Made by a program: the position numbers and the translations under genes | Part shown: positions 47,815 to 62,695 of the stretch, piece by piece | How the letters are laid out: each line of letters begins with the position of its first letter | Position numbering within the stretch: the first letter of the stretch is position 1 | Source of the DNA: a virus | Lineage: Duplodnaviria > Caudoviricetes | DNA length: 64,000 nt | Direction: 5' to 3' (one strand) | IMG/VR virus record: IMGVR_UViG_3300037851_000141 | Location: 128,001-192,000 of that record | Notes under the pieces: generated by a model | What the model was told of the DNA's origin: nothing | Database searches by the model: none | What the model saw: the letters and a program-made list of their open reading frames with translations, nothing else

Positions 47815-47903
47815 GGTAGGTTGGGTGAGAGGATAAACCAACGGTTTTGAAAACCGTCGAGCCTCCGAAAGAGGCTCCATCCGTTCGAATCGGATACCTA
47901 CCT
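47815..47903 (+). tRNA. tRNA-Ser(TGA)
   Basis: GGTAGGT/ACCTACC acceptor; ACGGT-TTTGAAA-ACCGT; long variable arm; TTCGAAT. Confidence 0.9.
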
Positions 47904-47908
47904 TATAT

Positions 47909-47998
47909 GGAAAAGTGCCAGAGAGGCTGATTGGCGCATCTTGGAAAGATGATGGTGATCCAAAAGATCACACGGGAGTTCGAATCTCCCCTTTTCCG
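47909..47998 (+). tRNA. tRNA-Ser(GGA)
   Basis: GGAAAAG/CTTTTCC acceptor; loop TTGGAAA; long variable arm; G73. Confidence 0.9.
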
Positions 47999-48004
47999 TA
48001 GTAT

Positions 48005-48090
48005 GGGGGTTTGCCAGAGTGGTCAATTGGGTCGCACTGTAAATGCGATGGCTCACGCCTTCAGTGGTTCGAATCCACTAGCTCCCACCA
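48005..48090 (+). tRNA. tRNA-Tyr(GTA)
   Basis: TCGCA-CTGTAAA-TGCGA; variable arm; encoded CCA. Confidence 0.92.
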
Positions 48091-48094
48091 TATC

Positions 48095-48169
48095 CCCTTT
48101 GTAGCTCACAGGTAGAGCAGAGGATTGAAAATCCTCCAGTAGTCGGTTCGATTCCGACCAAGGGGACCA
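48095..48169 (+). tRNA. tRNA-Phe(GAA)
   Basis: GAGGA-TTGAAAA-TCCTC; GTCGG-TTCGATT-CCGAC; encoded CCA. Confidence 0.92.
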
Positions 48170-48295
48170 CAGAAAAGCGGTAAGATTCTCACGAAACGGG
48201 AGAATCCATTGTTGCCCGGCGATGGGAGGGGGCCAGGGCGAAAAATTGGTTGACTTTCTTATTTTGTTCGTTATCATGATGTCAAAGGAAATTAT

Positions 48296-49102
48296 ATGGA
48301 GTCAGATAGCTTCGGTGATCGGATGAAATTGCTTGAACAGGCTGAAGCAGGAAGACAACTCATTCCGCTTCTTCCTATTATGATCCGTCTTGATGGTAAA
48401 GGATTTCATAATTGGACTAAAGGCTTGAATAGACCATATGATATTGGCCTGTCAACCCTTATGAAAGAGACAACACGTTTTCTGGTTGAAGAAACTAATG
48501 CTAAAATCGGATATACTCAATCAGATGAAATAAGTCTGATACTTTACTCCGATACATATGATTCTCAACCTTTTTTCAACGGCAAAATACAAAAACTAAA
48601 TTCTGTTATATGCTCCATGACAACCGCTTTCTTTAATCATAATGTTCAGAAATATCTACCAGAAAAAACAGGCAAGTTAGCTATTTTTGATTGTCGCATC
48701 TGGAATGTCCCTACGAAAACTGAAGCAACTAATACAATTCTTTGGAGAGAACAGGACGCATCTAAAAATTCAATCAGTATGGCAGCAAGACACTTTTTCT
48801 CACATAAACAACTCCAAAATAAAACTGGTTCAGAGATGCAAGAGATGATGTTTACTGAGAAAAATGTCAATTGGAATGATTATCCTGCTTTCTTTAAACG
48901 AGGCACTTTCATCCAACGTAAAAAGAAAATGGTAAAATTCTCTGCTGAAGAAATCAATAACCTTCCAGAAAAACACCAAGCAAGAACAAATCCAGACCTT
49001 GTAATTGAACGTACGGTTGTTGAAGAAATCAATATGCCAAAATTCTCAACAGTTAAAAATAGAAATGAAGTTGTCTTTGATGGTGCTGATCCTGTTGTCT
49101 AA
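48296..49102 (+). CDS. thg1: tRNA-His guanylyltransferase (Thg1)-like 3'-5' polymerase
   Basis: FGDRMK, IRLDGKGFH, YTQSDEIS, FDCR, WREQDASKNSI. Confidence 0.93.
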   Translation: MESDSFGDRMKLLEQAEAGRQLIPLLPIMIRLDGKGFHNWTKGLNRPYDIGLSTLMKETTRFLVEETNAKIGYTQSDEISLILYSDTYDSQPFFNGKIQKLNSVICSMTTAFFNHNVQKYLPEKTGKLAIFDCRIWNVPTKTEATNTILWREQDASKNSISMAARHFFSHKQLQNKTGSEMQEMMFTEKNVNWNDYPAFFKRGTFIQRKKKMVKFSAEEINNLPEKHQARTNPDLVIERTVVEEINMPKFSTVKNRNEVVFDGADPVV

Positions 49103-49106
49103 CTAT

Positions 49107-49180
49107 ACCCTGGCAGATGGTGGGTACATCGGTCAGCCTCCAAAACTGACGCTTAAAAGGTTCGATTCCTTTCCAGGGTG
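49107..49180 (+). tRNA. tRNA-Trp(CCA)
   Basis: ACCCTGG/CCAGGGT acceptor; loop CTCCAAA; AAAGG-TTCGATT-CCTTT. Confidence 0.8.
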
Positions 49181-49190
49181 CTTTTCATAC

Positions 49191-49281
49191 GGAATGGTGA
49201 GTGAGAAGGATTAAACTAGCTGTTTACTAAACAGCCGAGCCTCCCAAAGAGGCTCCGTGGGTTCGAATCCCACCCATTCCA
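49191..49281 (+). tRNA. tRNA-Ser with unusual ACT anticodon
   Basis: GGAATGG/CCATTCC acceptor; GCTGT-TTACTAA-ACAGC; Ser-type long variable arm. Confidence 0.85.
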
Positions 49282-49330
49282 TATAAATAATCTCTTGACT
49301 TAGTAAATTATGTTATTATAATGTGGTCCT

Positions 49331-50230
49331 ATGATTAAACTTCATATTAGACCCAGCCAAACAGTAGAAACCCTTCAACAAGCCAACCATTATGTGATGG
49401 CATTGGATGGTTATGTACCTAGCGCACCATATCATTTAGCTGATTGTAAACTAATTAATTTCAATCATCATGAAAATGTGGATCGACTGTCTACAAGAGC
49501 TACATGTTCACAAGTTCTTATTTCTATTCGTCAAGGAATGATGGATCTATTTAGAATTAATGGAGAGATAACCCTTGATGTGTATGTAAACGATTGTGAT
49601 CAAGATGTTTGTCTTTCTTGGTTCCTTCTTAAGAATCATCATCTTGTTGAAAATTCTATGAATCCTCTTATCAATAGATTAGTTCATATTGAAGATATGA
49701 TGGATACTTGCGGTGGTACATATCCATTTCATCGTGATACTCCAGTCTTAAAAGAAATAGCTTGGATCTTTCAACCATATACTTTGTTTAGACTCACAGG
49801 CGGAATTGAACGTAAAAATGTAAATGAATATCAAAATGTAATTGATAATGTATGTCAACGAATCATGTTACATATTACCGGAAACTCACATTCTATTGAT
49901 CTTGATATAAACTATAATGTTGATTACAGATCAGCAACATGGTCATTAGTTGAAGAAAAAGGTCGTGATGATCGTATGGCATATTGGGATGATGGGATTA
50001 AAGCTTTTATAGCATACCGCAAAAGAGTTGATGGAAATTATACGTATACTGTCGGAAAAATGAGTCCATTCATTGATTTTAATATCAGTGGAATTCTATC
50101 AAAGCTTAATCAGTTAGAAGAAGGTTGGGGTGGCTCAAATACTATTGGGGGCAGTCCTAGAACTGTTGGAAGTAAAATTAATCCACAAGAAATAATTGTG
50201 ATAGTTAATAATATACTTTCGCATAAATAA
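49331..50230 (+). CDS. DHH-like phosphoesterase (tentative)
   Basis: LDG, NFNHH, VNDCDQD acidic motif; C-terminal WGG..GGSPR. Confidence 0.5.
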   Translation: MIKLHIRPSQTVETLQQANHYVMALDGYVPSAPYHLADCKLINFNHHENVDRLSTRATCSQVLISIRQGMMDLFRINGEITLDVYVNDCDQDVCLSWFLLKNHHLVENSMNPLINRLVHIEDMMDTCGGTYPFHRDTPVLKEIAWIFQPYTLFRLTGGIERKNVNEYQNVIDNVCQRIMLHITGNSHSIDLDINYNVDYRSATWSLVEEKGRDDRMAYWDDGIKAFIAYRKRVDGNYTYTVGKMSPFIDFNISGILSKLNQLEEGWGGSNTIGGSPRTVGSKINPQEIIVIVNNILSHK

Positions 50231-50245
50231 TAACAAGGAAACCAA

Positions 50246-50695
50246 ATGACTGACCTAAAATCTGCCTATAAAGAAATGTCTAAACCACCAAGAATGATCC
50301 AAGTCGTACTATCAGATGAATCAAGAAATAAACTACTTAATTACCTAAACCCATTAAAATACTCCAATAAATCAGCTAAACCAGATCAATACTGCCACCA
50401 TATCACACTCGCCGTCAACCCCAATCAAAAACAACTCATATTCCTTAACTCACAAATACAAGAAAATCAAGAACTGAATATAACTTGCTTTCAACGGGCT
50501 TGGAGCGATTCTCTACAAATTGAGGCTGTCCTTGTAGAAATACCTTATCTGGAAGTACCCTGGCAAACTCTTCATATCACAACCTCAATGGAACACGATA
50601 AACCCGCCCTAAGCAACCAAATGATTAAATCAACAGATAAACAAACACAACAAATAAACTTGGAACTAAAAGGAACCGTAAAATACTATAAATAA
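50246..50695 (+). CDS. 2H phosphoesterase-superfamily protein
   Basis: Two HxT motifs (HHITL, LHITT) about 60 aa apart in a 149-aa protein. Confidence 0.75.
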   Translation: MTDLKSAYKEMSKPPRMIQVVLSDESRNKLLNYLNPLKYSNKSAKPDQYCHHITLAVNPNQKQLIFLNSQIQENQELNITCFQRAWSDSLQIEAVLVEIPYLEVPWQTLHITTSMEHDKPALSNQMIKSTDKQTQQINLELKGTVKYYK

Positions 50696-50709
50696 TAACG
50701 AGGTCAATT

Positions 50710-50946
50710 ATGAAACAAACTCTAAAAGAACAACTCGAAAATGCCTGGAATCAAGTTCAACAAACTAATGATCCAAGCCCTAAATACCTCGTCGGTGATA
50801 TCAAAGCAGGATTAAAAGCAGTTATAGAATTAATCCAAGAAGGTATAGATCAAAAACAATTGGCTAAAGTCGAAGGTACTATGAATAAATTGATCGAAAT
50901 AAGTAATAAACTGGATCAACTTGAAAAGAAAATAGGACTTGACTAA
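50710..50946 (+). CDS. Small coiled-coil hypothetical protein
   Basis: RBS GAGG. Confidence 0.6.
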   Translation: MKQTLKEQLENAWNQVQQTNDPSPKYLVGDIKAGLKAVIELIQEGIDQKQLAKVEGTMNKLIEISNKLDQLEKKIGLD

Positions 50947-51022
50947 TTTCAGAACTGTGGTAGAATAAGAGCGTTGAAAACAATATCTTTGACGCTCTTA
51001 TATCTTGGCAACTGAGAGTTTT
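50939..51022 (+). promoter_or_regulatory. Promoter and leader of the second tRNA block (TTGACT..TAGAAT, hairpin, boxA-like motif)
   Basis: AAGAGCGT/ACGCTCTT hairpin followed by TCTTGGCAACTGAGAGTTTT. Confidence 0.6.
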
Positions 51023-51024
51023 AT

Positions 51025-51095
51025 CAGGCCGTGGGATAGCGGTAGTCTACTAGTCTTGGGCACTAGGGGTGAGGGTTCAACTCCCTCCGGTCTGA
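51025..51095 (+). tRNA. tRNA-Pro(TGG)
   Basis: CAGGCCG/CGGTCTG acceptor; CTAGT-CTTGGGC-ACTAG. Confidence 0.9.
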
Positions 51096-51100
51096 TATTT

Positions 51101-51172
51101 GTTGCGGTGACTGAATGGCTAGGTGGCGGTTTGCAAAACCGTTCTATGTGGGTCCGAATCCCACCCGTAACT
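51101..51172 (+). tRNA. tRNA-Cys(GCA)
   Basis: GTTGCGG/CCGTAAC acceptor; loop TTGCAAA; U73; T-loop variant TCCGAAT. Confidence 0.88.
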
Positions 51173-51175
51173 TAT

Positions 51176-51322
51176 TAATATGTTGATAGTTGACTTAAGC
51201 AATGACAAGAGAAATTGCCGTGGAAACCTCAGACTATAGCTAAGTTAGAGGGAATAACATGCGACTGCGAGCCGGAACTCCAGAGTGGGAGAATGCCCCA
51301 ACCTTTTTTCTTCAACATATTA
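51176..51322 (+). ncRNA. Structured ncRNA A (147 nt), not a tRNA
   Basis: Perfect 11-bp terminal stem TAATATGTTGA/TCAACATATTA plus internal hairpins. Confidence 0.65.
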
Positions 51323-51332
51323 TTTCTTTTCT

Positions 51333-51479
51333 AAATAGAACACTGATAGGTTGACGAATCGAAAGAAATATTAAAACCGTCAATCGTTAACTTTGTCATG
51401 ACATTGTTGGTGTGTAGAACGACTATCTAAGGGGTAGGTAAGGAGTATGACCTTGTAATATTTTTTCGGTGTTCTATTT
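51333..51479 (+). ncRNA. Structured ncRNA B (147 nt), paralog-like to A
   Basis: 14-bp terminal stem AAATAGAACACTGA/TCGGTGTTCTATTT; motifs shared with A. Confidence 0.65.
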
Positions 51480-51482
51480 TAT

Positions 51483-51569
51483 GCCCGTATGGTGGAATTG
51501 GCAGACACACAAGACTTAGGATCTTGTGCCTTAACTGGCGTGTAGGTTCAAGTCCTACTACGGGTACCA
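51483..51569 (+). tRNA. tRNA-Leu(TAG)
   Basis: CAAGA-CTTAGGA-TCTTG; variable arm; encoded CCA. Confidence 0.93.
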
Positions 51570-51573
51570 ATAT

Positions 51574-51646
51574 GGGGACTTAGCTCATCTGGTAGAGCGT
51601 TTGCCTTGCACGCAAAAGGTGAGGGGTTCGACTCCCCTAGTCTCCA
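51574..51646 (+). tRNA. tRNA-Ala(TGC)
   Basis: GGGGACT/AGTCTCC acceptor with G3:U70; loop CTTGCAC. Confidence 0.93.
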
Positions 51647-51695
51647 TTATATAAATTGTTTGGACTTACCGAAATAGTATGATATAATAATATCT

Positions 51696-52337
51696 ATGAA
51701 AAATAAACTTTGTCTTAAATGTAAAAAAGAATTTCCACAAACCATAAGAATTGATGGGAAAAGACGCAATCTAAACAATAGAAAATATTGCTTAGACTGC
51801 TCTCCATTTGGTTCACATAATACAAGAGAACTACAAGATAATGTGTCCAGTATAAATTTATGTAAACGTTGTGGTCGTCATTTAAGATGTAAAAGGCGAA
51901 GATATTGTCAATGGTGTACACTTAAAAGAAAAAGAGATAGTATTTCGAAAAATGTTTATAATTTATTAGGTAATAGATGCTGGATTTGTAATGAATGTTC
52001 TACAAATGATGATTATACCAATTATCTTTTTTGTTTACATCACGTATATCCAGAATATAAAAAATATAAACTATCTAAAGATAATATGAGTAGACTTTCG
52101 CATTATCAATTAAAAGAAGAAATAAAAAAATGTGTTTGTTTATGTCATAATTGTCATAGTACGTTTCATTATACTGATTTGATAACACAAAATCAAATAA
52201 TTACAGTATATAATAATTTTTGGTTAAATATTGTTGATGATGATATGAATAAACTTTTTAAATTATATGACTATGAAAACATCAAAGATAAAAATCAAAA
52301 AGATTTATCATATCCAGAAATCGAATATTATATATAA
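51696..52337 (+). CDS. HNH endonuclease with multiple Zn-binding Cys pairs, probably free-standing homing endonuclease
   Basis: CLKC, CLDC, CKRC, CQWC, CWIC; LHHVYP..KCVCLCHNCH; own promoter ending in TATAAT. Confidence 0.8.
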   Translation: MKNKLCLKCKKEFPQTIRIDGKRRNLNNRKYCLDCSPFGSHNTRELQDNVSSINLCKRCGRHLRCKRRRYCQWCTLKRKRDSISKNVYNLLGNRCWICNECSTNDDYTNYLFCLHHVYPEYKKYKLSKDNMSRLSHYQLKEEIKKCVCLCHNCHSTFHYTDLITQNQIITVYNNFWLNIVDDDMNKLFKLYDYENIKDKNQKDLSYPEIEYYI

Positions 52338-52343
52338 TTTCAT

Positions 52344-52427
52344 TCAACGGTGCCCCGAATGATAAGGGACTCGGCTGTTAACCGAGCGGGAGAAATCCCA
52401 TTGCTGGTTTGACTCCAGCCCGTTGAG
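52344..52427 (+). tRNA. tRNA-Asn(GTT) with atypical long variable arm
   Basis: TCAACGG/CCGTTGA acceptor (U1:A72), G73; CTCGG-CTGTTAA-CCGAG; GGGA-GAAA-TCCC variable hairpin. Confidence 0.82.
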
Positions 52428-52457
52428 TTAAAAGTCCTTGCAAAAGGACTAAAAATC

Positions 52458-52586
52458 AAAGACTGAATGCCTGAAAGTTTACATTAGGATCTCTTGGTAG
52501 GTGGTTCAATTCCACCCAACCCGCCTCGCGTGGTTGTAGCTCACCGGCAGAGCAGGAGAGTTAACTTTCAACTTTTGTCAGTCTTT
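52458..52586 (+). ncRNA. Circularly permuted tRNA-like RNA, candidate YrlA-type Y RNA
   Basis: 5'-3' order is terminal stem, T arm (GGTGG-TTCAATT-CCACC), loop-closed acceptor stem, D arm (GCTC-ACCGGCA-GAGC), terminal stem; AAAGACTGA/TCAGTCTTT and TGAAAGTT/AACTTTCA helices; no anticodon loop. Confidence 0.75.
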
Positions 52587-52590
52587 TTAT

Positions 52591-52662
52591 GTTGATGAAG
52601 CTAAATGGCGCAGCGAAGGTTTCATAAGCCTTTTCAAGTGGGTTCGATTCCCACCATCAACA
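52591..52662 (+). tRNA. tRNA with CAT anticodon (Met, or Ile2 if lysidinylated)
   Basis: GTTGATG/CATCAAC acceptor; AAGGT-TTCATAA-GCCTT. Confidence 0.85.
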
Positions 52663-52685
52663 TTAAAACCATAGAAAGGTATATT

Positions 52686-52835
52686 ATGAAGATTCTCGCG
52701 TTTATGATATTTGTGTTGATGTTATGTGGATGTAGTAGTCGTCCAGGGATTATTGCTAATATGTCATCTGATGCTGGTATAAATTGGGATGATGGTGACG
52801 TTATTCCGATTTGTATTTGGTCGTGGACGTTTTAA
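52686..52835 (+). CDS. Small putative lipoprotein (49 aa)
   Basis: MK, hydrophobic stretch, lipobox-like LCGC; RBS GAAAGG. Confidence 0.6.
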   Translation: MKILAFMIFVLMLCGCSSRPGIIANMSSDAGINWDDGDVIPICIWSWTF

Positions 52836-52841
52836 TTTTAT

Positions 52842-52913
52842 GAGGGTTGTAGTCTAGTGGTAAAACGCTTCGTTGTGGCCGAAGATACTCGGGTTCGATT
52901 CCCGGCAGCCCTA
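52842..52913 (+). tRNA. tRNA-His(GTG)
   Basis: CTTCG-TTGTGGC-CGAAG; AGGGTTG/CAGCCCT acceptor; G at -1, A at 73. Confidence 0.88.
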
Positions 52914-52922
52914 TTTTTATAA

Positions 52923-52994
52923 CCTCCCATAGTTTAATGGTTAGAACGCAGTCCTGATACGGCTGATATCACTGTTCAAATCAGTGTGGGAGGA
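52923..52994 (+). tRNA. tRNA-Ile(GAT)
   Basis: CCTCCCA/TGGGAGG acceptor; CAGTC-CTGATAC-GGCTG. Confidence 0.88.
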
Positions 52995-53190
52995 CTTTTA
53001 TAATATTTATAGTAAAAATAAATGTATATATTATCGGTACTGATATTTTACTTAGTTTTATTTCTACATTATAATCAACCAAATATATAAAAATTTTATC
53101 GTTTTATTTATATAATTGACGACAGAAAATATTTATCAAAAACTTAACACTCATGATATAAATACATGTATAACCAGAAATGGAGATAAG

Positions 53191-53349
53191 ATGAAAGATA
53201 CCAAAGATAATGAAGTAAGAATAAGACTAACAAGTGAAGATAAAAACTTGATTGAAACTAATGCCAAGAACTTCGGATTTGTCTCAGTAAGTGAATACCT
53301 TAGATATATAGGTAAAAACTGTAAAGAAATCAAAATAAAAATCCAATGA
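53191..53349 (+). CDS. Small ribbon-helix-helix protein (52 aa)
   Basis: EVRIRLTSEDKNLIETNAKNFGFVSVSEYLR; RBS GGAG; ATGA-coupled to tnpB. Confidence 0.75.
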   Translation: MKDTKDNEVRIRLTSEDKNLIETNAKNFGFVSVSEYLRYIGKNCKEIKIKIQ

Positions 53350-54956
53350 TAAAATCTTACTCGTTCTACTGCTCTGACCTTAATAAGAAAAAGACAGATT
53401 TACTCTTACAAAAAGCAGTAGAATTGAGAGATTTTAAGAATCAAATATCTAAAGAAGTTTGTTCTAACTTTAGTTATTTCAACGAGATAAGTAAATTTGA
53501 CTGGATAACTTATTTCAGAACTCAACTTCCAAATTGTAATAATCAAGATATAAGTAATGCTATTTCAGATGTTTATGATAGTTATGAAAATAAACGAAAT
53601 AAGTTTATACAAAATATCTCATTCAAAGTCCAAAAAGAAATAAAATATACTTATTACAAAAATAACGGTAAAACTTATAAAAAAGGTGATGTTCGAGATG
53701 CTGAAGTTATCCTTGGAAGTAATAAGTTTACTAAATGCCTTACCTACTTATGTAGATACTGGAATCCTAACTTTATATCCTGGCTTGAAGAAAATAAAGA
53801 CCTTGATGAAAAGAAAGCCCAACTTCGTAATGATGCTCTGTCTTTGTTTAAGAAATATCCTGAACGAATAACGGTTCTTATTATCTCTCATAGAACCTCA
53901 GTAATAAACGAACTTGTTGAACATCCAATAACGTTCAACTCACTTAGTTTCAGAAGTTGTAATGAACTAAGAACTAAAATACTTAATAGAAATAAGAATC
54001 TCCAGGCTATATTTGGTGCTATTATAACTCTTGGAGGACAGAAAACATCATCAGGCAAACTCCATATTCCTGTAAAATATAGTTACTCTCATCATGGAAA
54101 TATAGATGACTATGATAAATCACCAAACGCTAAAGGGGTCAAAACTATATCATATACAGTCTGCTTCTATAAAAATAAAATAAGATTTGTATTAGGTAAA
54201 ACTGTAGATGATGAACTTCCGATAACTGACAAGAACGAATATTATGGAATTGATCTAAACGTTAAACATAATCTCTTCTGTGATAAACATGGGCAAACTA
54301 TAGATTATGATAGACGTATATTTCAAGATTATGTTAACTTCCTCAAAACCTTAGACTCAAAACATCAATATAAAAAACAACATAATCTCAATCTGGAATT
54401 AAGTAAAAAAGACCAAGACAAGTATGACACTTGGACTTCTCGTATAAAAGATATGTTGAAACGTAAATCTAATCAATTAGTCAAACAAGCAATAACTCAA
54501 GGCAAAAATCACATTGTAATGGAAGACCTTGGACAATTCTGTAAGTCATTTTCAAGATCAGAAGACTTTGACGGTTTCAAGTATTCTAGACTCATAAAGA
54601 TGTTAAATCTATCTGACTTGAAAAACATTGTCAAGTCAATTGCGAATAAACACGGAATTCAAGTCTCATTTGTTCATTCTCATTATACTAGCCAAACTTG
54701 CTCAAAATGTGGATTCATCTCAAGAGAAAATCGTAAATCGCAAGAAACTTTCTCTTGTCTTGAATGTGGACATACTAATAATGCTGATTCCAATTCTGCT
54801 GAAAATATAGAAAATAGAATGTCTGTAGATGATCTACAGGTCAAACTTCTATTGTCAGATAATGGTTCATGCTATCCTAAGAAACTAGGGAAGGCAACTA
54901 TTATCTCTATATTACATGATTACTATTCTCAAAAAGAAATAAACAAATTAGAGTGA
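53346..54956 (+). CDS. tnpB: TnpB-family RNA-guided endonuclease-like protein (536 aa)
   Basis: RuvC-I GIDLN, RuvC-II VMEDL, Zn ribbon TSQTCSKCG..CLECG, RuvC-III NADSN. Confidence 0.88.
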   Translation: MIKSYSFYCSDLNKKKTDLLLQKAVELRDFKNQISKEVCSNFSYFNEISKFDWITYFRTQLPNCNNQDISNAISDVYDSYENKRNKFIQNISFKVQKEIKYTYYKNNGKTYKKGDVRDAEVILGSNKFTKCLTYLCRYWNPNFISWLEENKDLDEKKAQLRNDALSLFKKYPERITVLIISHRTSVINELVEHPITFNSLSFRSCNELRTKILNRNKNLQAIFGAIITLGGQKTSSGKLHIPVKYSYSHHGNIDDYDKSPNAKGVKTISYTVCFYKNKIRFVLGKTVDDELPITDKNEYYGIDLNVKHNLFCDKHGQTIDYDRRIFQDYVNFLKTLDSKHQYKKQHNLNLELSKKDQDKYDTWTSRIKDMLKRKSNQLVKQAITQGKNHIVMEDLGQFCKSFSRSEDFDGFKYSRLIKMLNLSDLKNIVKSIANKHGIQVSFVHSHYTSQTCSKCGFISRENRKSQETFSCLECGHTNNADSNSAENIENRMSVDDLQVKLLLSDNGSCYPKKLGKATIISILHDYYSQKEINKLE

Positions 54957-55006
54957 TATTTTATCATTCTATGCTGTTTTTAGTAATCATCCAGCGTAAT
55001 TTATAG

Positions 55007-55123
55007 TACTCCTTAGTTCAATGGTAGAACATCGGCCTTGATCGCTATAGGAAGCAATGTAGTTCAAGTCTACAAGTGATCACCATGGAGCCGAGAATGC
55101 TGGTTCGAATCCAGCAGGAGTAA
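55007..55123 (+). tRNA. tRNA-Gln(TTG) interrupted in the anticodon loop by a 46-nt insert
   Basis: TACTCCT/AGGAGTA acceptor (U1:A72), GTTC/GAAC D stem, TCGGC/GCCGA anticodon stem, GCTGG-TTCGAAT-CCAGC; removing 55040-55085 gives loop CT-TTG-GA. Confidence 0.75.
55040..55085 (+). ncRNA. Nested mini-tRNA (acceptor stem, T arm, ACCA) inside tRNA-Gln
   Basis: GATCGCT/AGTGATC 7-bp stem, 11-nt linker, TGTAG-TTCAAGT-CTACA, A-CCA. Confidence 0.75.
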
Positions 55124-55129
55124 TTTTAT

Positions 55130-55201
55130 ACCCCTAAAGTGAAGATACCGTCACGTTAGCTTGTCGCGCTAAAGGGGAGAGTGGAAGTCTCTCTAGGGGT
55201 G
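55130..55201 (+). tRNA. Atypical tRNA-Asp(GTC)
   Basis: ACCCCTA/TAGGGGT acceptor, G73; TTAGC-TTGTCGC-GCTAA; non-canonical T-loop TGGAAGT. Confidence 0.75.
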
Positions 55202-55251
55202 CTTGCTTTTTCATTTTTTTATGGTACAATAATAATCTACGGAAAGAGGAT

Positions 55252-55734
55252 ATGCCGAAGTTAAAGATAACCCAAGAATTGTTAAACACGATATTAGCTG
55301 AGAGAATAGCGAAGTTTAACAAAGTGTGTACATCTGAGAAACTGAAGAATATCATAAACACAATACCTATAGTCATTTACGTTGATAATCGTACAGCGAC
55401 ATATTTAGGTTATGCTGATACAGTTAAGCGTAGAAACAAGAAAGAGATGAAGCGATACAAGATAAATTCACGTAAGAGTAAGAGTTATTTTTTTGAGGAT
55501 GACAACGTTTATTTTCTTATTGGAGTATGTACGAAGTTATTTAATTCGTATAATTTTAAGAATAATAAGAGTAGGCGTATGGAATTAACTGATACTGTTG
55601 CTCATGAGTTAGGTCATATATTGGAGTTTTTTGTTCATGGATATGAGGAACGTGTTTGTATTTTTCATACGAAGACATGGAAGAGATTTGCTCGTTTATT
55701 TGGATGTAGGAATGTTCGTGCTGTACAAGAATAA
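55252..55734 (+). CDS. SprT-like zinc metalloprotease-domain protein
   Basis: TVAHELGH..HTKTWK; promoter TTGCTT-N17-TACAAT. Confidence 0.7.
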   Translation: MPKLKITQELLNTILAERIAKFNKVCTSEKLKNIINTIPIVIYVDNRTATYLGYADTVKRRNKKEMKRYKINSRKSKSYFFEDDNVYFLIGVCTKLFNSYNFKNNKSRRMELTDTVAHELGHILEFFVHGYEERVCIFHTKTWKRFARLFGCRNVRAVQE

Positions 55735-55737
55735 TAT

Positions 55738-55812
55738 GCCCGCGTAGTTTAACAGAAGAACAAAAGGCTACGGACCTTTAGATAGTTTTAGGTGCAAATC
55801 CTCTCGCGGGTG
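55738..55812 (+). tRNA. tRNA-Arg(ACG), weak T stem
   Basis: GCCCGCG/CGCGGGT acceptor; AAAGG-CTACGGA-CCTTT; only 3 bp of T stem around TGCAAAT. Confidence 0.7.
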
Positions 55813-55821
55813 CTTTTATTT

Positions 55822-55902
55822 GTCCAAGTGGTGAAATGGCAGACACAGCATCTTGAGGGGGTGCCGCCGCGAGGCATGAAGGTTCGACTCCTTTCTTGGA
55901 CA
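55822..55902 (+). tRNA. tRNA-Leu(GAG)
   Basis: GTCCAAG/CTTGGAC acceptor, A73; loop TTGAGGG; variable arm. Confidence 0.9.
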
Positions 55903-55909
55903 TAAGTAT

Positions 55910-55993
55910 GGGGCTGTACGCAAACTGGAAAAGCGGCTTGTTTTCTTAGAATTCAAGTGTTTTTGAAGGTTCGATTCCTTTCCAGCCCCACCA
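55910..55993 (+). tRNA. Leu(TAG)-like tRNA with expanded 13-nt anticodon loop
   Basis: GGGGCTG/CAGCCCC acceptor, encoded CCA, Leu-type D loop; CTTG-TTTTCTTAGAATT-CAAG. Confidence 0.6.
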
Positions 55994-59147: not shown

Positions 59148-59807
59148 ATGTATAAAAAAGATATTTACGAACAGGCTATGATGTTAAAACGAAATGGACT
59201 AAAAACTATCCAAGTCCATAGTATTACAGGAGTTCCGATAAGTACATTGAAGGGTTGGTTTAGAAAAAATAGTAGAAAAGACCACCGGGAATATGCTGAT
59301 CCTTTACAGTTGTTGGAATCATTCAAGGACGAAAACAATAGAAACTTTTTATATGATATTTATTCTTATTTGTTGGGATTTTACCTTATTCGTGGGCATT
59401 TATATGAACATGGTGACACTTGGGAGTTAAGTTTTTTCATATCAGACCATTTATTTAAGAATTTCAACAATAAGTTTAAGTTTTTATTTGGTCGTGGTTT
59501 TTTCATCATTAAGAACAAGAAGCAGGCATTCTCTTTATATTCTAAGTATTTGGACAAGTTATTTCCTAAACCAAAAGAGTTAAAAGAATGGCAAACCCGC
59601 ATATTGAATATTACTGAGTTATTTAAGGGAATGGTACATACAGTTGACATAAAAGATGGTTATTTTAGGATTAGGTGTAATGATGATAACGCTTTAAGGG
59701 TATTTCAAGGGTGTTGTATTCAATTGGGTATTGCTTTTCAAAAAAATGGGAATATAATTGAAGTAACTGACCGGGAATCCTGGCTACGCATCAGAAGGAT
59801 TTACTAA
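59148..59807 (+). CDS. HTH plus degenerate LAGLIDADG-like domain protein
   Basis: N-terminal HTH (TGVPISTLKGW); YSYLLGFYLIRG in place of the usual YLLGxYLGDG. Confidence 0.55.
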   Translation: MYKKDIYEQAMMLKRNGLKTIQVHSITGVPISTLKGWFRKNSRKDHREYADPLQLLESFKDENNRNFLYDIYSYLLGFYLIRGHLYEHGDTWELSFFISDHLFKNFNNKFKFLFGRGFFIIKNKKQAFSLYSKYLDKLFPKPKELKEWQTRILNITELFKGMVHTVDIKDGYFRIRCNDDNALRVFQGCCIQLGIAFQKNGNIIEVTDRESWLRIRRIY

Positions 59808-60622
59808 TGGACAAAAAGATTATTAGTTATAGCAATTCTGAGATACAAGCTGCTATTTCAGATTTATTAACTAAAGTATCAGTGATTAAAGATAAGATCA
59901 AGAAAGTTGTTGGTATTGCTAATGGTGGGTTGTATATTAGTATTCCTATTGCTGAAAGTCTAGGCAAGGAACATTCTGAAATAAATATCAAATTCTATAA
60001 TAAATCTGGTGTTGCTCTTGATAAACCGATGATAGATGTTGTTGATACGAGTAAAATACAAACTCCGTTTTTATTGATAGATGATTTGATAGATAGTGGG
60101 AGAACCATAAATTATTTTATTGATAAGACTGGTTATATTCAAGGTAAACATTTTTATATTGGTTGTTTATTTTATGATGAAAAGAATGAGTTTAGAGTTG
60201 TTCCCGATTTTTATGTTTATCCGAAACCTGATGCTTGGGTTGAATTTCCTTGGGAGAAGGTGACAAGTTATACATCATCACAAATTTCATTGGCATTAGT
60301 TGAGCGAACTCCATATTTGACATTAGATAAACTTAAACAATTGAGAGAGATTTGTTTGAAGGCTAGTCGTGGACCATGGACATTTGATGAAGATGAAGAT
60401 TGTCAAAGGATATTTTCTACAAATCTTCATGAAATTGCTAAAGATGAATATATGATTGGGCATCCTTTACAACTTGCTAAATGTCCGAAAAGGAATAGTG
60501 GGTTTGCTGAATATTGGTTCACTGAAAATGACCTGAAGTTTTTGATTTCGGCTTCCAAGTACATGTTGCCGATGGTTGAAACTCTTATAAAAGTTGCTGA
60601 GGAAGAAAATAATGAAAGCTAG
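59807..60622 (+). CDS. Type I phosphoribosyltransferase (Gpt/Hpt-like) with C-terminal extension
   Basis: GIANGG; LLIDDLIDSGRT; WVEFPWE. Confidence 0.85.
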   Translation: MDKKIISYSNSEIQAAISDLLTKVSVIKDKIKKVVGIANGGLYISIPIAESLGKEHSEINIKFYNKSGVALDKPMIDVVDTSKIQTPFLLIDDLIDSGRTINYFIDKTGYIQGKHFYIGCLFYDEKNEFRVVPDFYVYPKPDAWVEFPWEKVTSYTSSQISLALVERTPYLTLDKLKQLREICLKASRGPWTFDEDEDCQRIFSTNLHEIAKDEYMIGHPLQLAKCPKRNSGFAEYWFTENDLKFLISASKYMLPMVETLIKVAEEENNES

Positions 60623-60977
60623 GAGATACCCATTTCGTAGTCGTAGGTTGCGTAAGAAATATCGTCAAAAAGAATTTGCTGAATATGGATTTGAGGTATC
60701 TGGAAGTTATTTTGGTGAGTGTAAGTGTTTGTGGTTTGTTAGAGACGAAGTTTTTATAAATTTAGCTGAAATGATTGAAAAAGCCGGGTTTTATTTTGGT
60801 GGTGGATATAATGATAATACTTGGGGTTTTACGTTTGGTAAGTATCGTGGTTCCATTACTTTAGAAGATAAAAATAAGATACTCGAAGAGATTAAAAAGA
60901 TGGAAGGTGCTGGTCTAAAAATTGAAAAAGTTAGTGATTTGATTGACCTTTGGTACGAAAATCGGGATCCAAAATAG
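60612..60977 (+). CDS. YggL/DUF469-like protein
   Basis: RSRRLRKKYRQKEFAEYGFEV..FGGG. Confidence 0.8.
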   Translation: MKARRYPFRSRRLRKKYRQKEFAEYGFEVSGSYFGECKCLWFVRDEVFINLAEMIEKAGFYFGGGYNDNTWGFTFGKYRGSITLEDKNKILEEIKKMEGAGLKIEKVSDLIDLWYENRDPK

Positions 60978-60980
60978 TTC

Positions 60981-61008
60981 TTGACTTTGATTTTTTGTCG
61001 GCTATAAT
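60981..61008 (+). promoter_or_regulatory. Sigma70-type promoter for the Ro60 gene
   Basis: TTGACT-N16-TATAAT. Confidence 0.65.
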
Positions 61009-61063
61009 GTTCGTCGCAAAAGCCAATAAACCCTTGTCCCTCCAAGAAAGGAAGGAATGTATC

Positions 61064-62695
61064 ATGGCTAACAAGAATCTTTTCCAATCATCTGCTGGTA
61101 TGGCTCCAATCACTGACGCTCTTAATGAGGCTGGTGGTGTAGCTTATAACCTCTCTGATAAAGCGGCCCTTGCTCAGATGGTGGTTACTGGTTGCTTTAA
61201 TCAGACTTTTTATGCTGATGCCAAAACTCAGCTTGATACTGTGTTGAAGCTGGCAAACAAGGTTCCAACCAAGTTTGTCGCTCAACTGGCGGTATATGCT
61301 CGCACTAATGCTTATATGAAGGATTCTCCTGCGGTTCTTGCTGCTGTGCTGGCAAGTCGTGATATGGGAATGCTGAAGTCTATTTTTGCCACTGTAATTG
61401 ATAATGGCAAGATGGTTCGCAACTTCTGCCAAATCCTTCGTTCTGGTGTTGTTGGTCGCAAGTCATTTGGAACTGCTGCTAAGAAACTGGTTCAAAACTG
61501 GCTGATTAACCGTAAGCCAGAGCAGTTGTTCCGTGATATTGTCGGCAACGATCCTTCTCTGTCAGATGTTATTAAGATGACTCACCCTCATCCAAAGAAC
61601 AAGACTCAAGAGTTTATGTTTGCCTATATCTGTGGTCGAGTCAACATTGAAGTCAAGGGTAATACTTTGACTGCTACCAAGGTGTATAATGGCAAGACTC
61701 AAACCATCAAGTCTGAGAATATTCCAGATATTGTCAGAGATTTTGAGATTTTCAAGGCGAAGAAACTTGCTGGAAAGAGTGCTGGTGAGACTCCAGATGT
61801 GCCTTTCCAAATGTTGTCTTCATTGAATATGGGTACTGCTGAGTGGACTGAAATGGCTCGCAATGGGTCTTGGACGTTTACTCGCATGAATCTGAACAAT
61901 TTCTTGAAGTATGATGTGTTCAAGGATAAAAAGATGGTTGATATGATTGCTGATCGACTTTCTTCATCAACCGAAGTGAAGAAGTCCAGAGTATTCCCAT
62001 ATCAGCTACTTACTGCGTTCAAGTCAGTATCTTCAGAAATGCCAACCAAGATCACCAACGCACTTCAAGATGCTATGGAGATTGCTGTTGGGAACATTCC
62101 TGATCTTGACGGTAAGAAAATCTATGTTTGTGTTGATACCAGTGGAAGCATGCAGAGTGCTGTAACTGGTGATCGTGGCGGTGGTACTACTGCGACAACT
62201 TGTGTTGATGTAGCTGGACTTGTAGCCTCTGCGATTCTGCGTAAAAATCAAGATACCAGCGTAATTCCATTTGATACTGACGTTCACTTGGTTTCTCTTA
62301 ATTCACGGGATAGTGTCATGACCAACGCACAAAAGTTGGCTCTGCGTGGGGGTGGTACTGATTGTTCTTGTGCGCTTCGGTATCTTAACAACATTGAGGC
62401 TAAAGGGGATGTCGTTATCTTTGTCTCTGATAATGAGAGTTGGGCTGATCGTGGATATGGTCGTGGAACCGGAACGCACAACGAATTCCTGAAATTCCGT
62501 AAGCGTAATCCAAATGCGGTTCTGATCAATATCGACATTCAGCCAAACACTTATACTCAAACCAAGGAATCACCTTATATCTTCAATATTGGCGGATTCT
62601 CTGATCAAGTATTTGAGATTATCGCTGCCATTGCCAAAGATAGACTCAATAAGGATTGGTTCGTGACTGAGATTGAAAAAGTTAAGATTGGCTGA
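61064..62695 (+). CDS. rsr: Ro60/Rsr (TROVE plus vWA) RNA-binding protein
   Basis: NEAGG.AY, TGCFNQTFY, YARTNAYMKD, RKSFG, SRVFPYQLL; vWA VDTSGSM..GGGTDC..FVSDNES; RBS-supported start 61064. Confidence 0.92.
   Translation: MANKNLFQSSAGMAPITDALNEAGGVAYNLSDKAALAQMVVTGCFNQTFYADAKTQLDTVLKLANKVPTKFVAQLAVYARTNAYMKDSPAVLAAVLASRDMGMLKSIFATVIDNGKMVRNFCQILRSGVVGRKSFGTAAKKLVQNWLINRKPEQLFRDIVGNDPSLSDVIKMTHPHPKNKTQEFMFAYICGRVNIEVKGNTLTATKVYNGKTQTIKSENIPDIVRDFEIFKAKKLAGKSAGETPDVPFQMLSSLNMGTAEWTEMARNGSWTFTRMNLNNFLKYDVFKDKKMVDMIADRLSSSTEVKKSRVFPYQLLTAFKSVSSEMPTKITNALQDAMEIAVGNIPDLDGKKIYVCVDTSGSMQSAVTGDRGGGTTATTCVDVAGLVASAILRKNQDTSVIPFDTDVHLVSLNSRDSVMTNAQKLALRGGGTDCSCALRYLNNIEAKGDVVIFVSDNESWADRGYGRGTGTHNEFLKFRKRNPNAVLINIDIQPNTYTQTKESPYIFNIGGFSDQVFEIIAAIAKDRLNKDWFVTEIEKVKIG

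What the first reader, a model, noticed from the sequence alone, without database searches (positions are those of the whole stretch)
52458..52586. Permuted tRNA mimic (YrlA-type Y RNA) in a phage that also encodes Ro60
Seen: the T arm precedes the D arm, the acceptor stem (CAACC-CGC/GCG-T-GGTTG) is closed by a small loop, and the anticodon stem (TCTCT/GGAGA) continues into two long helices joining the 5' and 3' ends instead of forming a loop. The 5' strand carries CCTGAAAG. Known: this is the architecture of bacterial YrlA Y RNAs, whose terminal stem binds Ro60/Rsr, and the window encodes Ro60 at 61064-62695. Some phage Y RNAs are already known, so the class is not new. This copy sits inside the tRNA array about 8.5 kb from rsr, deviates from the GNCGAA-type motif as I recall it, and a standard tRNA scan would probably miss it.
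Basis: partly seen in the sequence, partly recalled or inferred. Interest (0 to 1): 0.85.

Follow-up and report, generated by a model that had tools for sequence, protein, structure and literature searches.

The report
Phage Y RNA inside tRNA array
A 128-nt gene in the tRNA cluster of a 332-kb freshwater phage is a genuine YrlA-type Y RNA, a tRNA look-alike on a stem that most likely partners the phage's own Ro60 protein; this class is already published for phages, so it is a new member and not a new kind.

Summary
Window 52460-52587 (+) matches the whole Rfam YrlA model (47.6 bits, E 5e-8 in 20 kb). That is below the curated cut-off of 69 bits. ARAGORN and the Rfam tRNA model both miss it.

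- **Covariation:** in an alignment with 22 YrlA-like RNAs from other Ro60-encoding phages, 24 of 30 pairs show compensatory changes.
- **Relatives:** the closest relative with DNA, and cultured Myxococcus phage Mx1, carry the same RNA wedged between tRNA genes.
- **Ro60:** the gene at 61064-62695 is confirmed.

- The conserved handle is CUGAAUGC (52463-52470) with UUUUGUC (52573-52579), not CCUGAAAG.
- Its departure from GNCGAA is a compensated base-pair swap that is common in phages.
- A distance of 8.5 kb from rsr is not unusual for large phages.

The same genome also holds three 65-73-nt mini Y RNAs with the same handle, 7.7 kb downstream of rsr.

Phage YrlAs have been published since 2014, and this scan has reported Ro60-like protein plus handle-RNA sets on other phage DNA before. 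Verdict: new member of a known kind, of moderate interest. Ro60 binding and function are inferred.

The parts
52460..52587 (+). YrlA-type Y RNA gene (whole RNA as matched by the covariance models)
   Evidence: Rfam RF02553 matches positions 1-114 at 47.6 bits. The phage-trained model R1 gives 88.5 bits, but this sequence was in the training set.
52460..52466 (+). Terminal stem, 5' strand. It pairs with 52578-52584.
   Evidence: All 7 pairs of this helix show compensatory changes among 23 phage YrlAs. The same holds in 33 mini Y RNAs.
52463..52470 (+). Conserved handle motif CUGAAUGC, the counterpart of GNCGAAN0-1G and the presumed Ro60 contact
   Evidence: It aligns to the 'CgaAUGC' consensus of the Rfam model. 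A at 52467 and U at 52468 are invariant; G at 52465 and A at 52466 are conserved in at least 90% of the sequences. The Ro60 contact is inferred from Chen 2014.
52472..52479 (+). Stem 2, 5' strand (UGAAAGUU).
   Evidence: Six of the 7 predicted pairs covary and the sequence is not conserved.
52479..52484 (+). Conserved UUACAU (the YUAY element of YrlA) at the junction after stem 2
   Evidence: UAC is invariant in the phage YrlAs and UACA in the mini Y RNAs. YUAY is described in Chen 2014.
52490..52494 (+). Anticodon-stem analogue, strand equivalent to tRNA 39-43. It pairs with 52555-52559.
   Evidence: Three of these pairs are placed by the Rfam alignment. A natural variant, G52555A, turns U-G into U-A.
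52500..52516 (+). T arm (5-bp stem, loop UUCAAUU)
   Evidence: GGUUC..A..UCC is nearly invariant in the family. A natural variant, C52515U, keeps the pair as G-U.
52517..52536 (+). Acceptor-stem analogue closed by a 3-nt loop. There is no discriminator base and no CCA.
   Evidence: Read directly from the sequence. All 7 pairs covary in the family.
52539..52553 (+). D arm (4-bp stem, loop ACCGGCA with G18 G19)
   Evidence: UAGCUC...GAGC is nearly invariant. The relative L070 has the compensated form GCAC/GUGC.
52573..52579 (+). Conserved 3' handle motif UUUUGUC, facing GAAUGC across the internal loop
   Evidence: GUC is conserved in at least 90% of the phage YrlAs. In the mini Y RNAs the U, G and U of UUGUC are that conserved. 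It matches 'UuGuc' of the Rfam consensus.
52343..52428 (+). tRNA-Asn(GUU), the upstream neighbour. A 31-nt spacer with a small hairpin lies before the Y RNA.
   Evidence: ARAGORN.
52590..52663 (+). tRNA-Met(CAU), the downstream neighbour. It starts 2 nt after the Y RNA match ends.
   Evidence: ARAGORN and Rfam tRNA.
61064..62695 (+). Ro60/Rsr orthologue (TROVE ring plus vWA domain), the presumed protein partner
   Evidence: Pfam vWA_Ro60 at 7e-12 and TROVE at 3e-10. PDB matches are 2NVO Rsr, 9KOP phage phiLo Ro60 and 1YVP Xenopus Ro60.

Best explanation
Window 52460-52587 (+) encodes a YrlA-type Y RNA. It has two modules.

- **The 'handle'.** The 5' and 3' ends pair as a terminal stem. An internal loop follows, carrying GAAUGC opposite UUUUGUC, then a second stem, then UUACAU.
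- **The tRNA-like module.** It is circularly permuted: T arm, closed acceptor-like hairpin, D arm and a 5-bp anticodon-stem analogue, with no anticodon loop and no CCA end.

Inferred mechanism:
1. The RNA is transcribed as part of the tRNA-Asn / Y RNA / tRNA-Met precursor.
2. Its 3' end is set by RNase P cleavage at the 5' end of tRNA-Met, 2 nt away. Its 5' side is set by 3' processing of tRNA-Asn and trimming of the spacer.
3. The handle binds the outer surface of the phage Ro60 ring encoded 8.5 kb downstream on the same strand.
4. The tRNA-like module tethers a second factor. This is most likely the host 3'-5' exoribonuclease PNPase, because the phage has none. The result would be a Ro60-Y RNA-PNPase type machine acting on structured or damaged RNA during infection.
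5. Three shorter Y RNAs with the same handle but no tRNA module, 7.7 kb downstream of rsr, would compete for or gate the same Ro60.

Shown here: the family assignment, the structure, conservation with covariation, and the genomic association with Ro60. Inferred: expression, processing, Ro60 binding, the PNPase partner and the biological role.
For: **Family assignment and structure**
- The Rfam YrlA match is full length, 47.6 bits, E 4.8e-8 in 20 kb.
- No tRNA gene overlaps it.
- The acceptor strands are mutually complementary and closed by a triloop.
- The tRNA-like fold lies within 1.6 kcal/mol of the MFE.
- Most tRNA tertiary partners are present, read from the sequence: U8-A14, G18/G19 with the T loop, U54-A58, A9, G45 and G46.

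**Conservation and covariation**
- Aligned with 22 YrlA-like RNAs from other Ro60-encoding phages, RNAalifold recovers the terminal stem, stem 2 and the T, acceptor and D stems. 24 of 30 pairs show double compensatory changes.
- In the model search over the window and 67 related loci, nearly all centred on a phage rsr gene, all 148 model matches lie on the rsr strand.
- Relative L070 (Ro60 61% identical) was not used in training. It has a 74-bit YrlA 5.4 kb upstream of rsr, placed 1 nt after tRNA-Lys and 2 nt before tRNA-Thr.
- Cultured Myxococcus phage Mx1 (Ro60 48% identical) has one 11.6 kb upstream of its TROVE gene, between tRNAs.
- A contig about 94% identical from another metagenome carries 5 substitutions and 1 insertion in the RNA. 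All fall in loops or keep pairing: G-C to G-U, and U-G to U-A.

**Link to Ro60**
- Ro60 is confirmed.
- The same handle occurs in three paralogous mini Y RNAs of this genome and about 40 in other Ro60 phages. 12 of 13 pairs covary.
- The genome has no RNase PH/PNPase domain.

**Published precedent**
- YrlA binds Rsr and is found with PNPase in Salmonella, and YrlAs were reported in 22 phages (Chen 2014, PMC4201824).
- Thermus phage phiLo Ro60 binds two phage Y-like RNAs and forms ternary complexes with host PNPase in vitro (PMC12135203).
Against: - The score is below Rfam's gathering cut-off (47.6 against 69 bits).
- The gene lies 8.5 kb from rsr, outside the 4-kb high-confidence window of Chen 2014.
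- The literal GNCGAAN0-1G motif is not met. The sequence is A-C-U-G-A-A-U-G.
- No RNA data exist. All six public runs holding the stretch are DNA metagenomes, so expression, the ends and Ro60 binding are untested.
- The YrlA model also fires on tandem tRNA genes in genomes without Ro60 (controls), so the E-value alone is not proof.
- The minus strand folds about as well by energy alone.
- The partner of the tRNA-like module is not established for any YrlA.
Confidence: 0.87

Rival explanations
1. It is a YrlA-shaped RNA whose main role does not depend on Ro60. Examples would be a processing or punctuation element of the tRNA-array precursor that recruits RNase P, RNase Z or modification enzymes, or a decoy for host factors that recognise the tRNA elbow.
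For: - It is butted against tRNA genes here, in L070 and in Mx1.
- About 43% of 92 phage Y-RNA candidates lie within 15 nt of a tRNA gene.
- rsr is 8.5 kb away.
- M. smegmatis YrlA is an RNase P substrate (Chen 2014).
Against: - The handle (GAAUGC / UUGUC / UACAU) is the most conserved non-tRNA part.
- The handle is retained in mini Y RNAs that have no tRNA-like part at all.
- The handle RNAs were found by searching around Ro60 genes, always on the rsr strand.
- A mere punctuation element would not need a conserved handle.
Confidence: 0.07
2. It is a false positive of the YrlA model or a decayed remnant of two tandem tRNA genes. The T arm and acceptor 3' strand would come from one tRNA, and the acceptor 5' strand and D arm from the next.
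For: - Chen 2014 warn that tandem tRNAs score as YrlA.
- The model does fire on the tRNA-Leu/tRNA-Ala pair at window 51511-51632, at 20 bits.
- It also fires in control genomes.
- The element lies in a tRNA array.
Against: - No tRNA is called there by ARAGORN or Rfam.
- The two acceptor strands pair with each other across a 3-nt loop. There is no CCA, trailer or leader.
- The flanks form two covarying helices carrying the conserved handle.
- The score of 47.6 bits compares with 20 bits for the true tandem-tRNA artefact.
- Orthologues are conserved with compensatory changes in L070, Mx1 and dozens of phage contigs.
Confidence: 0.03
3. It is a circularly permuted tRNA gene, as in Cyanidioschyzon merolae. 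Its transcript would be circularised and re-cut to give a conventional, chargeable tRNA.
For: - The 3' half precedes the 5' half.
- tRNA numbering is kept exactly.
- The phage encodes tRNA end-repair enzymes: a Thg1-like enzyme at 48296-49102, a CCA-adding enzyme and an Rnl-type ligase.
Against: - Joining the ends gives about 50 nt of paired handle, not a 7-nt anticodon loop.
- The acceptor analogue has no discriminator, no CCA and only a 3-nt connecting loop.
- The handle is shared with mini Y RNAs that contain no tRNA parts, so it is a functional module and not a processing scaffold.
- The sequence matches the YrlA model end to end.
Confidence: 0.02

Closest known systems
YrlA (Y RNA-like A; Rfam RF02553) of Salmonella Typhimurium, Mycobacterium smegmatis and other bacteria, and of 22 phages (Chen et al. 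2014, PMC4201824; structure preprint doi 10.1101/312249)
   Same: - The order of modules is the same: terminal stem, GAAUG-type motif, second stem, YUAY, T arm, closed acceptor-like hairpin, D arm, return strands.
- It lies on the same strand as a Ro60 orthologue.
- The match to the family's covariance model is full length.
   Different: - It scores 47.6 bits, below the 69-bit curated cut-off. The same was true of every match found in 50 Ro60 phage records.
- The handle reads ACUGAAUG in place of GNCGAAUG, through compensated pair swaps.
- There is no V stem-loop. A 7-nt bulge sits in that position, and the anticodon-stem analogue is longer at 5 bp.
- It is 8.5 kb from rsr, not within 4 kb.
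- It is wedged between tRNA genes.
Thermus phage phiLo Ro60 with Yrl1/Yrl2 (NAR 2025, PMC12135203; PDB 9KOP, 9L5Y)
   Same: - A phage-encoded Ro60 comes with several phage-encoded Y-like RNAs carrying a CGAA-type motif in a stem-bulge-stem.
- The phage has no PNPase of its own, so a host PNPase partner is proposed.
   Different: - The phiLo RNAs lie directly upstream of the Ro60 gene. That paper never uses the term 'tRNA-like'.
- Binding is shown experimentally there and not here.
- The Ro60 proteins are only distantly related (E 3e-11).
YrlB of Salmonella and M. smegmatis, and Yrn2 of D. radiodurans (short second Y RNAs)
   Same: The three 65-73-nt mini Y RNAs of this genome share the handle with the YrlA and lack the full tRNA-like module. 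YrlB relates to YrlA in the same way.
   Different: - No Rfam family matches them.
- They sit beside tRNA genes 7.7 kb downstream of rsr.
- Homology to YrlB itself was not tested because no reference sequence was available.
Escherichia phage Bas63 gp130 (Ro60-like protein that counters the Ppl defence; PhageMaP preprint doi 10.1101/2024.10.10.617714)
   Same: A phage Ro60-like gene lies next to a tRNA array. The authors proposed that some of the 'tRNA genes' there are really Y RNAs.
   Different: - The Bas63 protein is Ro60-like only by structure, whereas this one is a clear TROVE plus vWA_Ro60 protein by sequence.
- An anti-defence role is shown for Bas63 and is untested here.
Permuted tRNA genes of Cyanidioschyzon merolae
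   Same: The 3' half of the tRNA body is encoded before the 5' half.
   Different: There is no anticodon loop, no CCA or discriminator, and no removable linker. The ends form a conserved protein-binding handle.

Membership tests
YrlA-type Y RNA (Chen et al. 2014; Rfam RF02553) | Significant full-length match to the family covariance model | tested here: met
   Model positions 1-114 of 114 match at 47.6 bits, E 5.3e-10 locally and 4.8e-8 in 20 kb. Chen 2014 used E below 5e-5.
YrlA-type Y RNA (Chen et al. 2014; Rfam RF02553) | Score at or above Rfam's curated gathering cut-off of 69 bits. This is an annotation threshold, not a biological feature. | tested here: not met
   The score is 47.6 bits (one search shows no hit at gathering). 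None of the matches in 50 Ro60-encoding phage records reached it either; the best was 64.9 bits. The cut-off is too strict for phage members.
YrlA-type Y RNA (Chen et al. 2014; Rfam RF02553) | Conserved T-arm-like and D-arm-like stem-loops in the order T then D, separated by an acceptor-like (AS) stem-loop | tested here: met
   T arm at 52500-52516, AS at 52517-52536, D arm at 52539-52553. The helices covary in the family.
YrlA-type Y RNA (Chen et al. 2014; Rfam RF02553) | The 5' and 3' ends pair into a stem that carries the Ro60-recognition motif GNCGAAN0-1G near the 5' end | tested here: inconclusive
   The stem and the GAAUG core are present, and the element aligns to the motif. The literal motif fails at two paired positions: G to A at 52462 and C to U at 52464. 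Both are compensated on the 3' strand. The U-A variant is frequent in phage homologues: 5 of 23 YrlAs and 9 of 33 mini Y RNAs. Whether Ro60 accepts it is untested.
YrlA-type Y RNA (Chen et al. 2014; Rfam RF02553) | Conserved YUAY after the second stem | tested here: met
   UUAC lies at 52479-52482. UAC is invariant across the 23 phage YrlAs and UACA across the 33 mini Y RNAs.
YrlA-type Y RNA (Chen et al. 2014; Rfam RF02553) | Best model match in the genome, on the same strand as a Ro60 orthologue and within 4 kb of it (the high-confidence filter of Chen 2014) | tested here: inconclusive
   It is the best and only full-length YrlA in the genome and lies on the rsr strand. The distance is 8,477 nt, not 4 kb or less. 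Comparable or larger distances occur in L070 (5.4 kb), L018 (9 kb), Mx1 (11.6 kb) and G019 (12-23 kb).
YrlA-type Y RNA (Chen et al. 2014; Rfam RF02553) | Bound by Ro60/Rsr in vivo or in vitro | not testable with these tools
   This needs EMSA or co-immunoprecipitation.
YrlA-type Y RNA (Chen et al. 2014; Rfam RF02553) | Carries tRNA-type modifications (pseudouridine 55, dihydrouridine) and is recognised by tRNA enzymes | not testable with these tools
   The substrate nucleotide U55 is present in UUCAAUU. The 7-nt D loop ACCGGCA contains no U, so dihydrouridine is unlikely here (read from the sequence).
Permuted tRNA gene | Joining the transcript ends restores a 7-nt anticodon loop, and the acceptor ends carry a discriminator and CCA or a removable linker | tested here: not met
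   The ends form two helices with a conserved internal loop. The acceptor analogue is closed by 3 nt, with no discriminator and no CCA.
Tandem-tRNA artefact of the YrlA model | The match overlaps two adjacent tRNA genes | tested here: not met
   The nearest tRNAs end at 52428 and start at 52590. The real artefact in this window, at 51511-51632, scores only 20 bits.

The most novel reading that the evidence does not exclude
In large Ro60-encoding phages, Y RNAs are built into the tRNA arrays as regular units. These include one tRNA-mimic YrlA and several roughly 65-nt 'handle-only' RNAs that no Rfam family covers. tRNA-processing enzymes (RNase P and RNase Z) would release them. The resulting Ro60-Y RNA particles would form part of a phage tRNA surveillance, repair or anti-defence toolkit together with Thg1-like, CCA-adding and RNA-ligase enzymes. 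On this reading the Y RNA set of a phage could be read straight from its tRNA array.
Probability: 0.3. Interest if true: 0.6.

Novelty: new member of a known kind. Interest (0 to 1): 0.4.

Why it matters
**What it adds**
- It names the likely RNA partners of a phage Ro60 in an uncultured 332-kb freshwater phage.
- It shows that standard annotation misses such genes. The Rfam cut-off and the tRNA finders missed this one, and none of the matches in 50 Ro60 phage records reached the Rfam cut-off.
- The recurring placement of Y RNAs flush against tRNA genes gives a testable idea of how their ends are made.
- The unannotated homologues in cultured Myxococcus phage Mx1 offer an experimental system for asking what phage Ro60-Y RNA particles do. 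The options are RNA decay with host PNPase, tRNA quality control, or defence evasion as reported for Bas63 gp130.

**What it does not add**
It does not reveal a new class. Phage YrlAs, multiple Y RNAs per genome, and a phage Ro60-Y RNA-PNPase complex are all published.

Tried and rejected
1. **Own-genome search with RF02553.** It did not list this site. It listed only the tRNA-Leu/Ala tandem artefact and a partial hit, because its coarse first look never passed the site on. The direct cmscan is the valid test.
2. **Pattern search for close Ro60 relatives in viral contigs with the single protein.** It found nothing. The alignment-based search gave 67 loci, the best at 52% identity.
3. **Fetching contigs of the closest Ro60 homologues.** P0003, P0010 and P0008 returned gene tables but no DNA. 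L101 and L102 begin too close to rsr to include the upstream tRNA region, and they show no full-length YrlA.
4. **DNA similarity to catalogued phages.** It gave only a 52-nt match to Lak megaphages inside the upstream ORF, which is uninformative.
5. **RNA evidence.** No RNA run holds the stretch, so expression and ends could not be checked.
6. **Folding z-score as evidence of strand.** Rejected, because both strands give about -3.2.
7. **The MFE alternative.** It forms a weak G-U-rich hairpin at 52483-52498 and re-pairs the D region. I considered it a possible V arm and rejected it, because it destroys the nearly invariant D arm. It is favoured over the tRNA-like fold by only 1.6 kcal/mol.
8. 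**The two 147-nt RNAs at 51176-51479 as extra Y RNAs.** Not supported. R1 gives 14.9 bits, E 0.67, and Rfam gives nothing.
9. **Complex prediction.** Not used, because it does not take RNA.

Full report
**Setting**

The window is bases 128001-192000 of a single 331,849-bp IMG/VR virus record. CheckV estimates it 92% complete. The only public run that holds the whole stretch is a freshwater metagenome, which may be the source of this DNA. The finding lies in a plus-strand tRNA cluster. ARAGORN tRNAs at 47815-55903, and the element sits between tRNA-Asn (52343-52428) and tRNA-Met (52590-52663).

**Observation**

- A T arm at 52500-52516.
- An acceptor-like helix at 52517-52536, which follows directly and is closed by a 3-nt loop.
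- UA, then a D arm at 52539-52553, then A.
- GGAGA at 52555-52559, pairing back to UCUCU at 52490-52494. A 5-nt variable loop lies between that stem and the T arm.

The spacing follows tRNA numbering without a single offset. Beyond the anticodon-stem analogue there is no loop. A 7-nt bulge comes first, followed by C-G and A-U pairs. An 8-bp stem follows (52472-79 / 52563-70). Next comes an internal loop, and last a 7-bp terminal stem (52460-66 / 52578-84). This model costs -40.6 kcal/mol against an unconstrained MFE of -42.2. Energy z-scores are about -3.2 on both strands, so they carry little weight.

**Identity**

- At Rfam gathering thresholds nothing but tRNAs is reported, and no tRNA is called on the element.
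- With E-value reporting, RF02553 (YrlA) matches 52460-52587 over model positions 1-114 of 114 at 47.6 bits. E is 5.3e-10 in 221 nt and 4.8e-8 in 20 kb.
- The alignment keeps the consensus GAAUGC, UAC, the T and D arms and UUGUC.

Chen et al. 2014 warn that tandem tRNA genes give false YrlA hits. That artefact does occur in this window, at 51511-51632, but scores only 20 bits. The element differs from the artefact in three ways. It overlaps no tRNA, its two acceptor strands pair with each other, and it has the handle.

**Comparative evidence**

The Ro60 gene at 61064-62695 is confirmed by Pfam TROVE plus vWA_Ro60. It also matches Rsr 2NVO, phage phiLo Ro60 9KOP and Xenopus Ro60 in the PDB.

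An alignment of its homologues retrieved 67 Ro60 loci from viral contigs. In 50 of those records the Rfam model finds matches at E of 0.001 or less in 32, and none reaches 69 bits. The best is 64.9 bits.

Twenty-two of the full-length matches, aligned with this element, share NNN(C/U)GAAUGC, (A/C)UUACAU, GGUUCRANUCC, UAGCUCA..GG.AGAGC and UUGUC(G/A)NNN. RNAalifold recovers five helices. 24 of 30 pairs have double compensatory changes.

A model built from that alignment (R1) finds 148 matches in the window and the 67 related loci searched, all on the rsr strand.

Three further lines support the assignment.
- **L070.** In this contig the Ro60 is 61% identical and the sequence was not used for training. 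A 74-bit YrlA lies 5.4 kb upstream of rsr, 1 nt after tRNA-Lys and 2 nt before tRNA-Thr. Every stem sequence differs, but the pairs are kept.
- **Myxococcus phage Mx1.** This is the closest catalogued cultured phage by Ro60 (48% identity). An unannotated YrlA (R1 53.9 bits, Rfam 32 bits) lies 11.6 kb upstream of its TROVE gene. It sits between an unannotated tRNA-like sequence and an unannotated tRNA.
- **A natural variant.** A contig about 94% identical from a groundwater metagenome differs in the RNA at five positions plus one insertion. Two changes keep pairs (G-C to G-U at 52515, U-G to U-A at 52555). The rest are in loops. By my own rough estimate, six changes sparing every helix by chance has a probability near 0.02. 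The contig has low depth.

The published motif is GNCGAAN0-1G. By alignment the counterpart here is ACUGAAUG at 52462-52469. The first G and the C are replaced, and both replacements are compensated on the 3' strand. In the family alignments this position is C-G in 14 and U-A in 5 of 23 YrlAs. It is C-G in 19 and U-A in 9 of 33 mini Y RNAs. This is ordinary covariation and not a special deviation.

**More Y RNAs**

Scanning the whole genome with R1 gives one YrlA and three short matches at L103:8429-8493, 8505-8577 and 8779-8844 (genome 198429-198844). These lie 7.7 kb downstream of rsr. Two of them start 2 nt after a tRNA gene.

They have the same handle and an A-rich loop in place of the tRNA module. 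About 40 similar RNAs occur in the other Ro60 phage loci. In an alignment of 33, 12 of 13 pairs covary. No Rfam family matches them at E of 1 or less. An earlier first-stage note on this genome had listed the same three RNAs. I found them independently with the model.

**Context**

- Neighbours in the window are a Thg1-like enzyme inside the array (48296-49102), a phosphoribosyltransferase, and a YggL-like protein directly upstream of rsr.
- Downstream neighbours are a radical-SAM protein, a CCA-adding enzyme and IF3.
- The order PRTase, YggL or radical SAM, Ro60, (Rnl2), CCA-adding enzyme, IF3 recurs in relatives.
- The genome has no RNase PH/PNPase domain and no RtcB. It has one Rnl-type ligase far away.
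- Among 92 distinct phage Y-RNA candidates (49 long, 43 short), 40 have a tRNA gene within 15 nt and 63 within 300 nt.

**Mechanism**

Shown: the family assignment, structure, conservation, and association with rsr.

Inferred from published systems:
- The handle binds Ro60 (Chen 2014; phiLo).
- The tRNA-like module tethers another factor. Host PNPase is the leading candidate, because the phage lacks one and phiLo Ro60-Yrl-PNPase complexes form in vitro.

Inferred from the gene layout: the RNA is cut out of a tRNA precursor, and RNase P cleavage at tRNA-Met defines its 3' end. A role in tRNA quality control or in countering defence is suggested only by the neighbouring genes and by the Bas63 gp130 result.

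**What is known, and novelty**

- YrlAs were reported in 254 bacteria and 22 phages in 2014. [quoted passage not shown]
- TROVE proteins with a tRNA-like partner are noted for jumbo phages.
- A phage Ro60-Y RNA complex has been solved.
- A link between a phage Ro60-like gene and its tRNA array has been suggested.
- This scan has also reported Ro60-like proteins with handle RNAs in Felix O1-type and other phages on other DNA.

The element is therefore a new member of a known kind. Its modest added value has three parts: it demonstrates that curated thresholds miss phage members, it documents the tRNA-flush arrangement across many phages, and it identifies a cultured test system.

Noticed in passing
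L103:8429-8493, 8505-8577, 8779-8844 (genome 198429-198844; 6.4-6.8 kb beyond the window end): There are three 65-73-nt mini Y RNAs (YrlB-like). They have the same handle as the YrlA (NNNCGAAUGC, stem, UUACAU, loop, stem, UUUUGUCGNNN) but no tRNA module. Two start 2 nt after a tRNA gene. No Rfam family matches them.
   Followed up: yes
Loci L003-L070 (Ro60-encoding viral contigs): There are about 49 YrlA-like and 43 mini Y RNA candidates, all on the rsr strand. 40 of 92 have a tRNA gene within 15 nt. Several loci have only mini Y RNAs. None of the matches found in the 50 records searched reaches the Rfam YrlA gathering score.
   Followed up: partly
L118:255-383 and 607-713 (Myxococcus phage Mx1, OR576727.2 45169-45297 and 45521-45627): A cultured phage carries an unannotated YrlA-like RNA. 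It also carries a handle-plus-T-arm RNA that overlaps the annotated 'hypothetical protein' WNM70101.1. Unannotated tRNA-like sequences lie at L118:182-251 and 385-458.
   Followed up: partly
window 55007-55123: The Rfam tRNA model matches end to end (59.3 bits) over 117 nt, which means a tRNA body with an insert of about 46 nt. ARAGORN does not call it. Earlier first-stage notes read it as a mini tRNA-like element nested in the anticodon loop.
   Followed up: no
window 55910-55990: Rfam finds a further tRNA (34.7 bits) that ARAGORN does not call.
   Followed up: no
window 52432-52453: A 7-bp hairpin (AGUCCUU GCAA AAGGACU) fills the spacer between tRNA-Asn and the Y RNA. It is absent from relative L070, where the Y RNA starts 1 nt after the tRNA.
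   Followed up: no
window 51176-51479: Two adjacent structured units of about 147 nt lie between tRNA-Cys and tRNA-Leu. Neither Rfam nor the phage Y RNA model matches them (R1 14.9 bits, E 0.67). They are not Y RNAs by these tests, and their identity is open.
   Followed up: partly
window 53346-54956 (+) and L103:9027-10343 (-): Two TnpB/Cas12f-like ORFs (Pfam Cas12f1-like_TNB) are inserted in or next to the tRNA clusters.
   Followed up: no
window 59807-62695 plus L103:1665-5565; relatives: The gene order around phage rsr is conserved: phosphoribosyltransferase, YggL-like or radical SAM, Ro60, a roughly 210-aa unknown protein, (ADP-ribosylglycohydrolase, Rnl2 ligase), CCA-adding enzyme, IF3.
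   Followed up: partly
window 52687 onward (+): A short ORF directly after tRNA-Met begins with a lipoprotein-type signal (MKILAFMIFVLMLCGCSS), inside the tRNA cluster.
   Followed up: no
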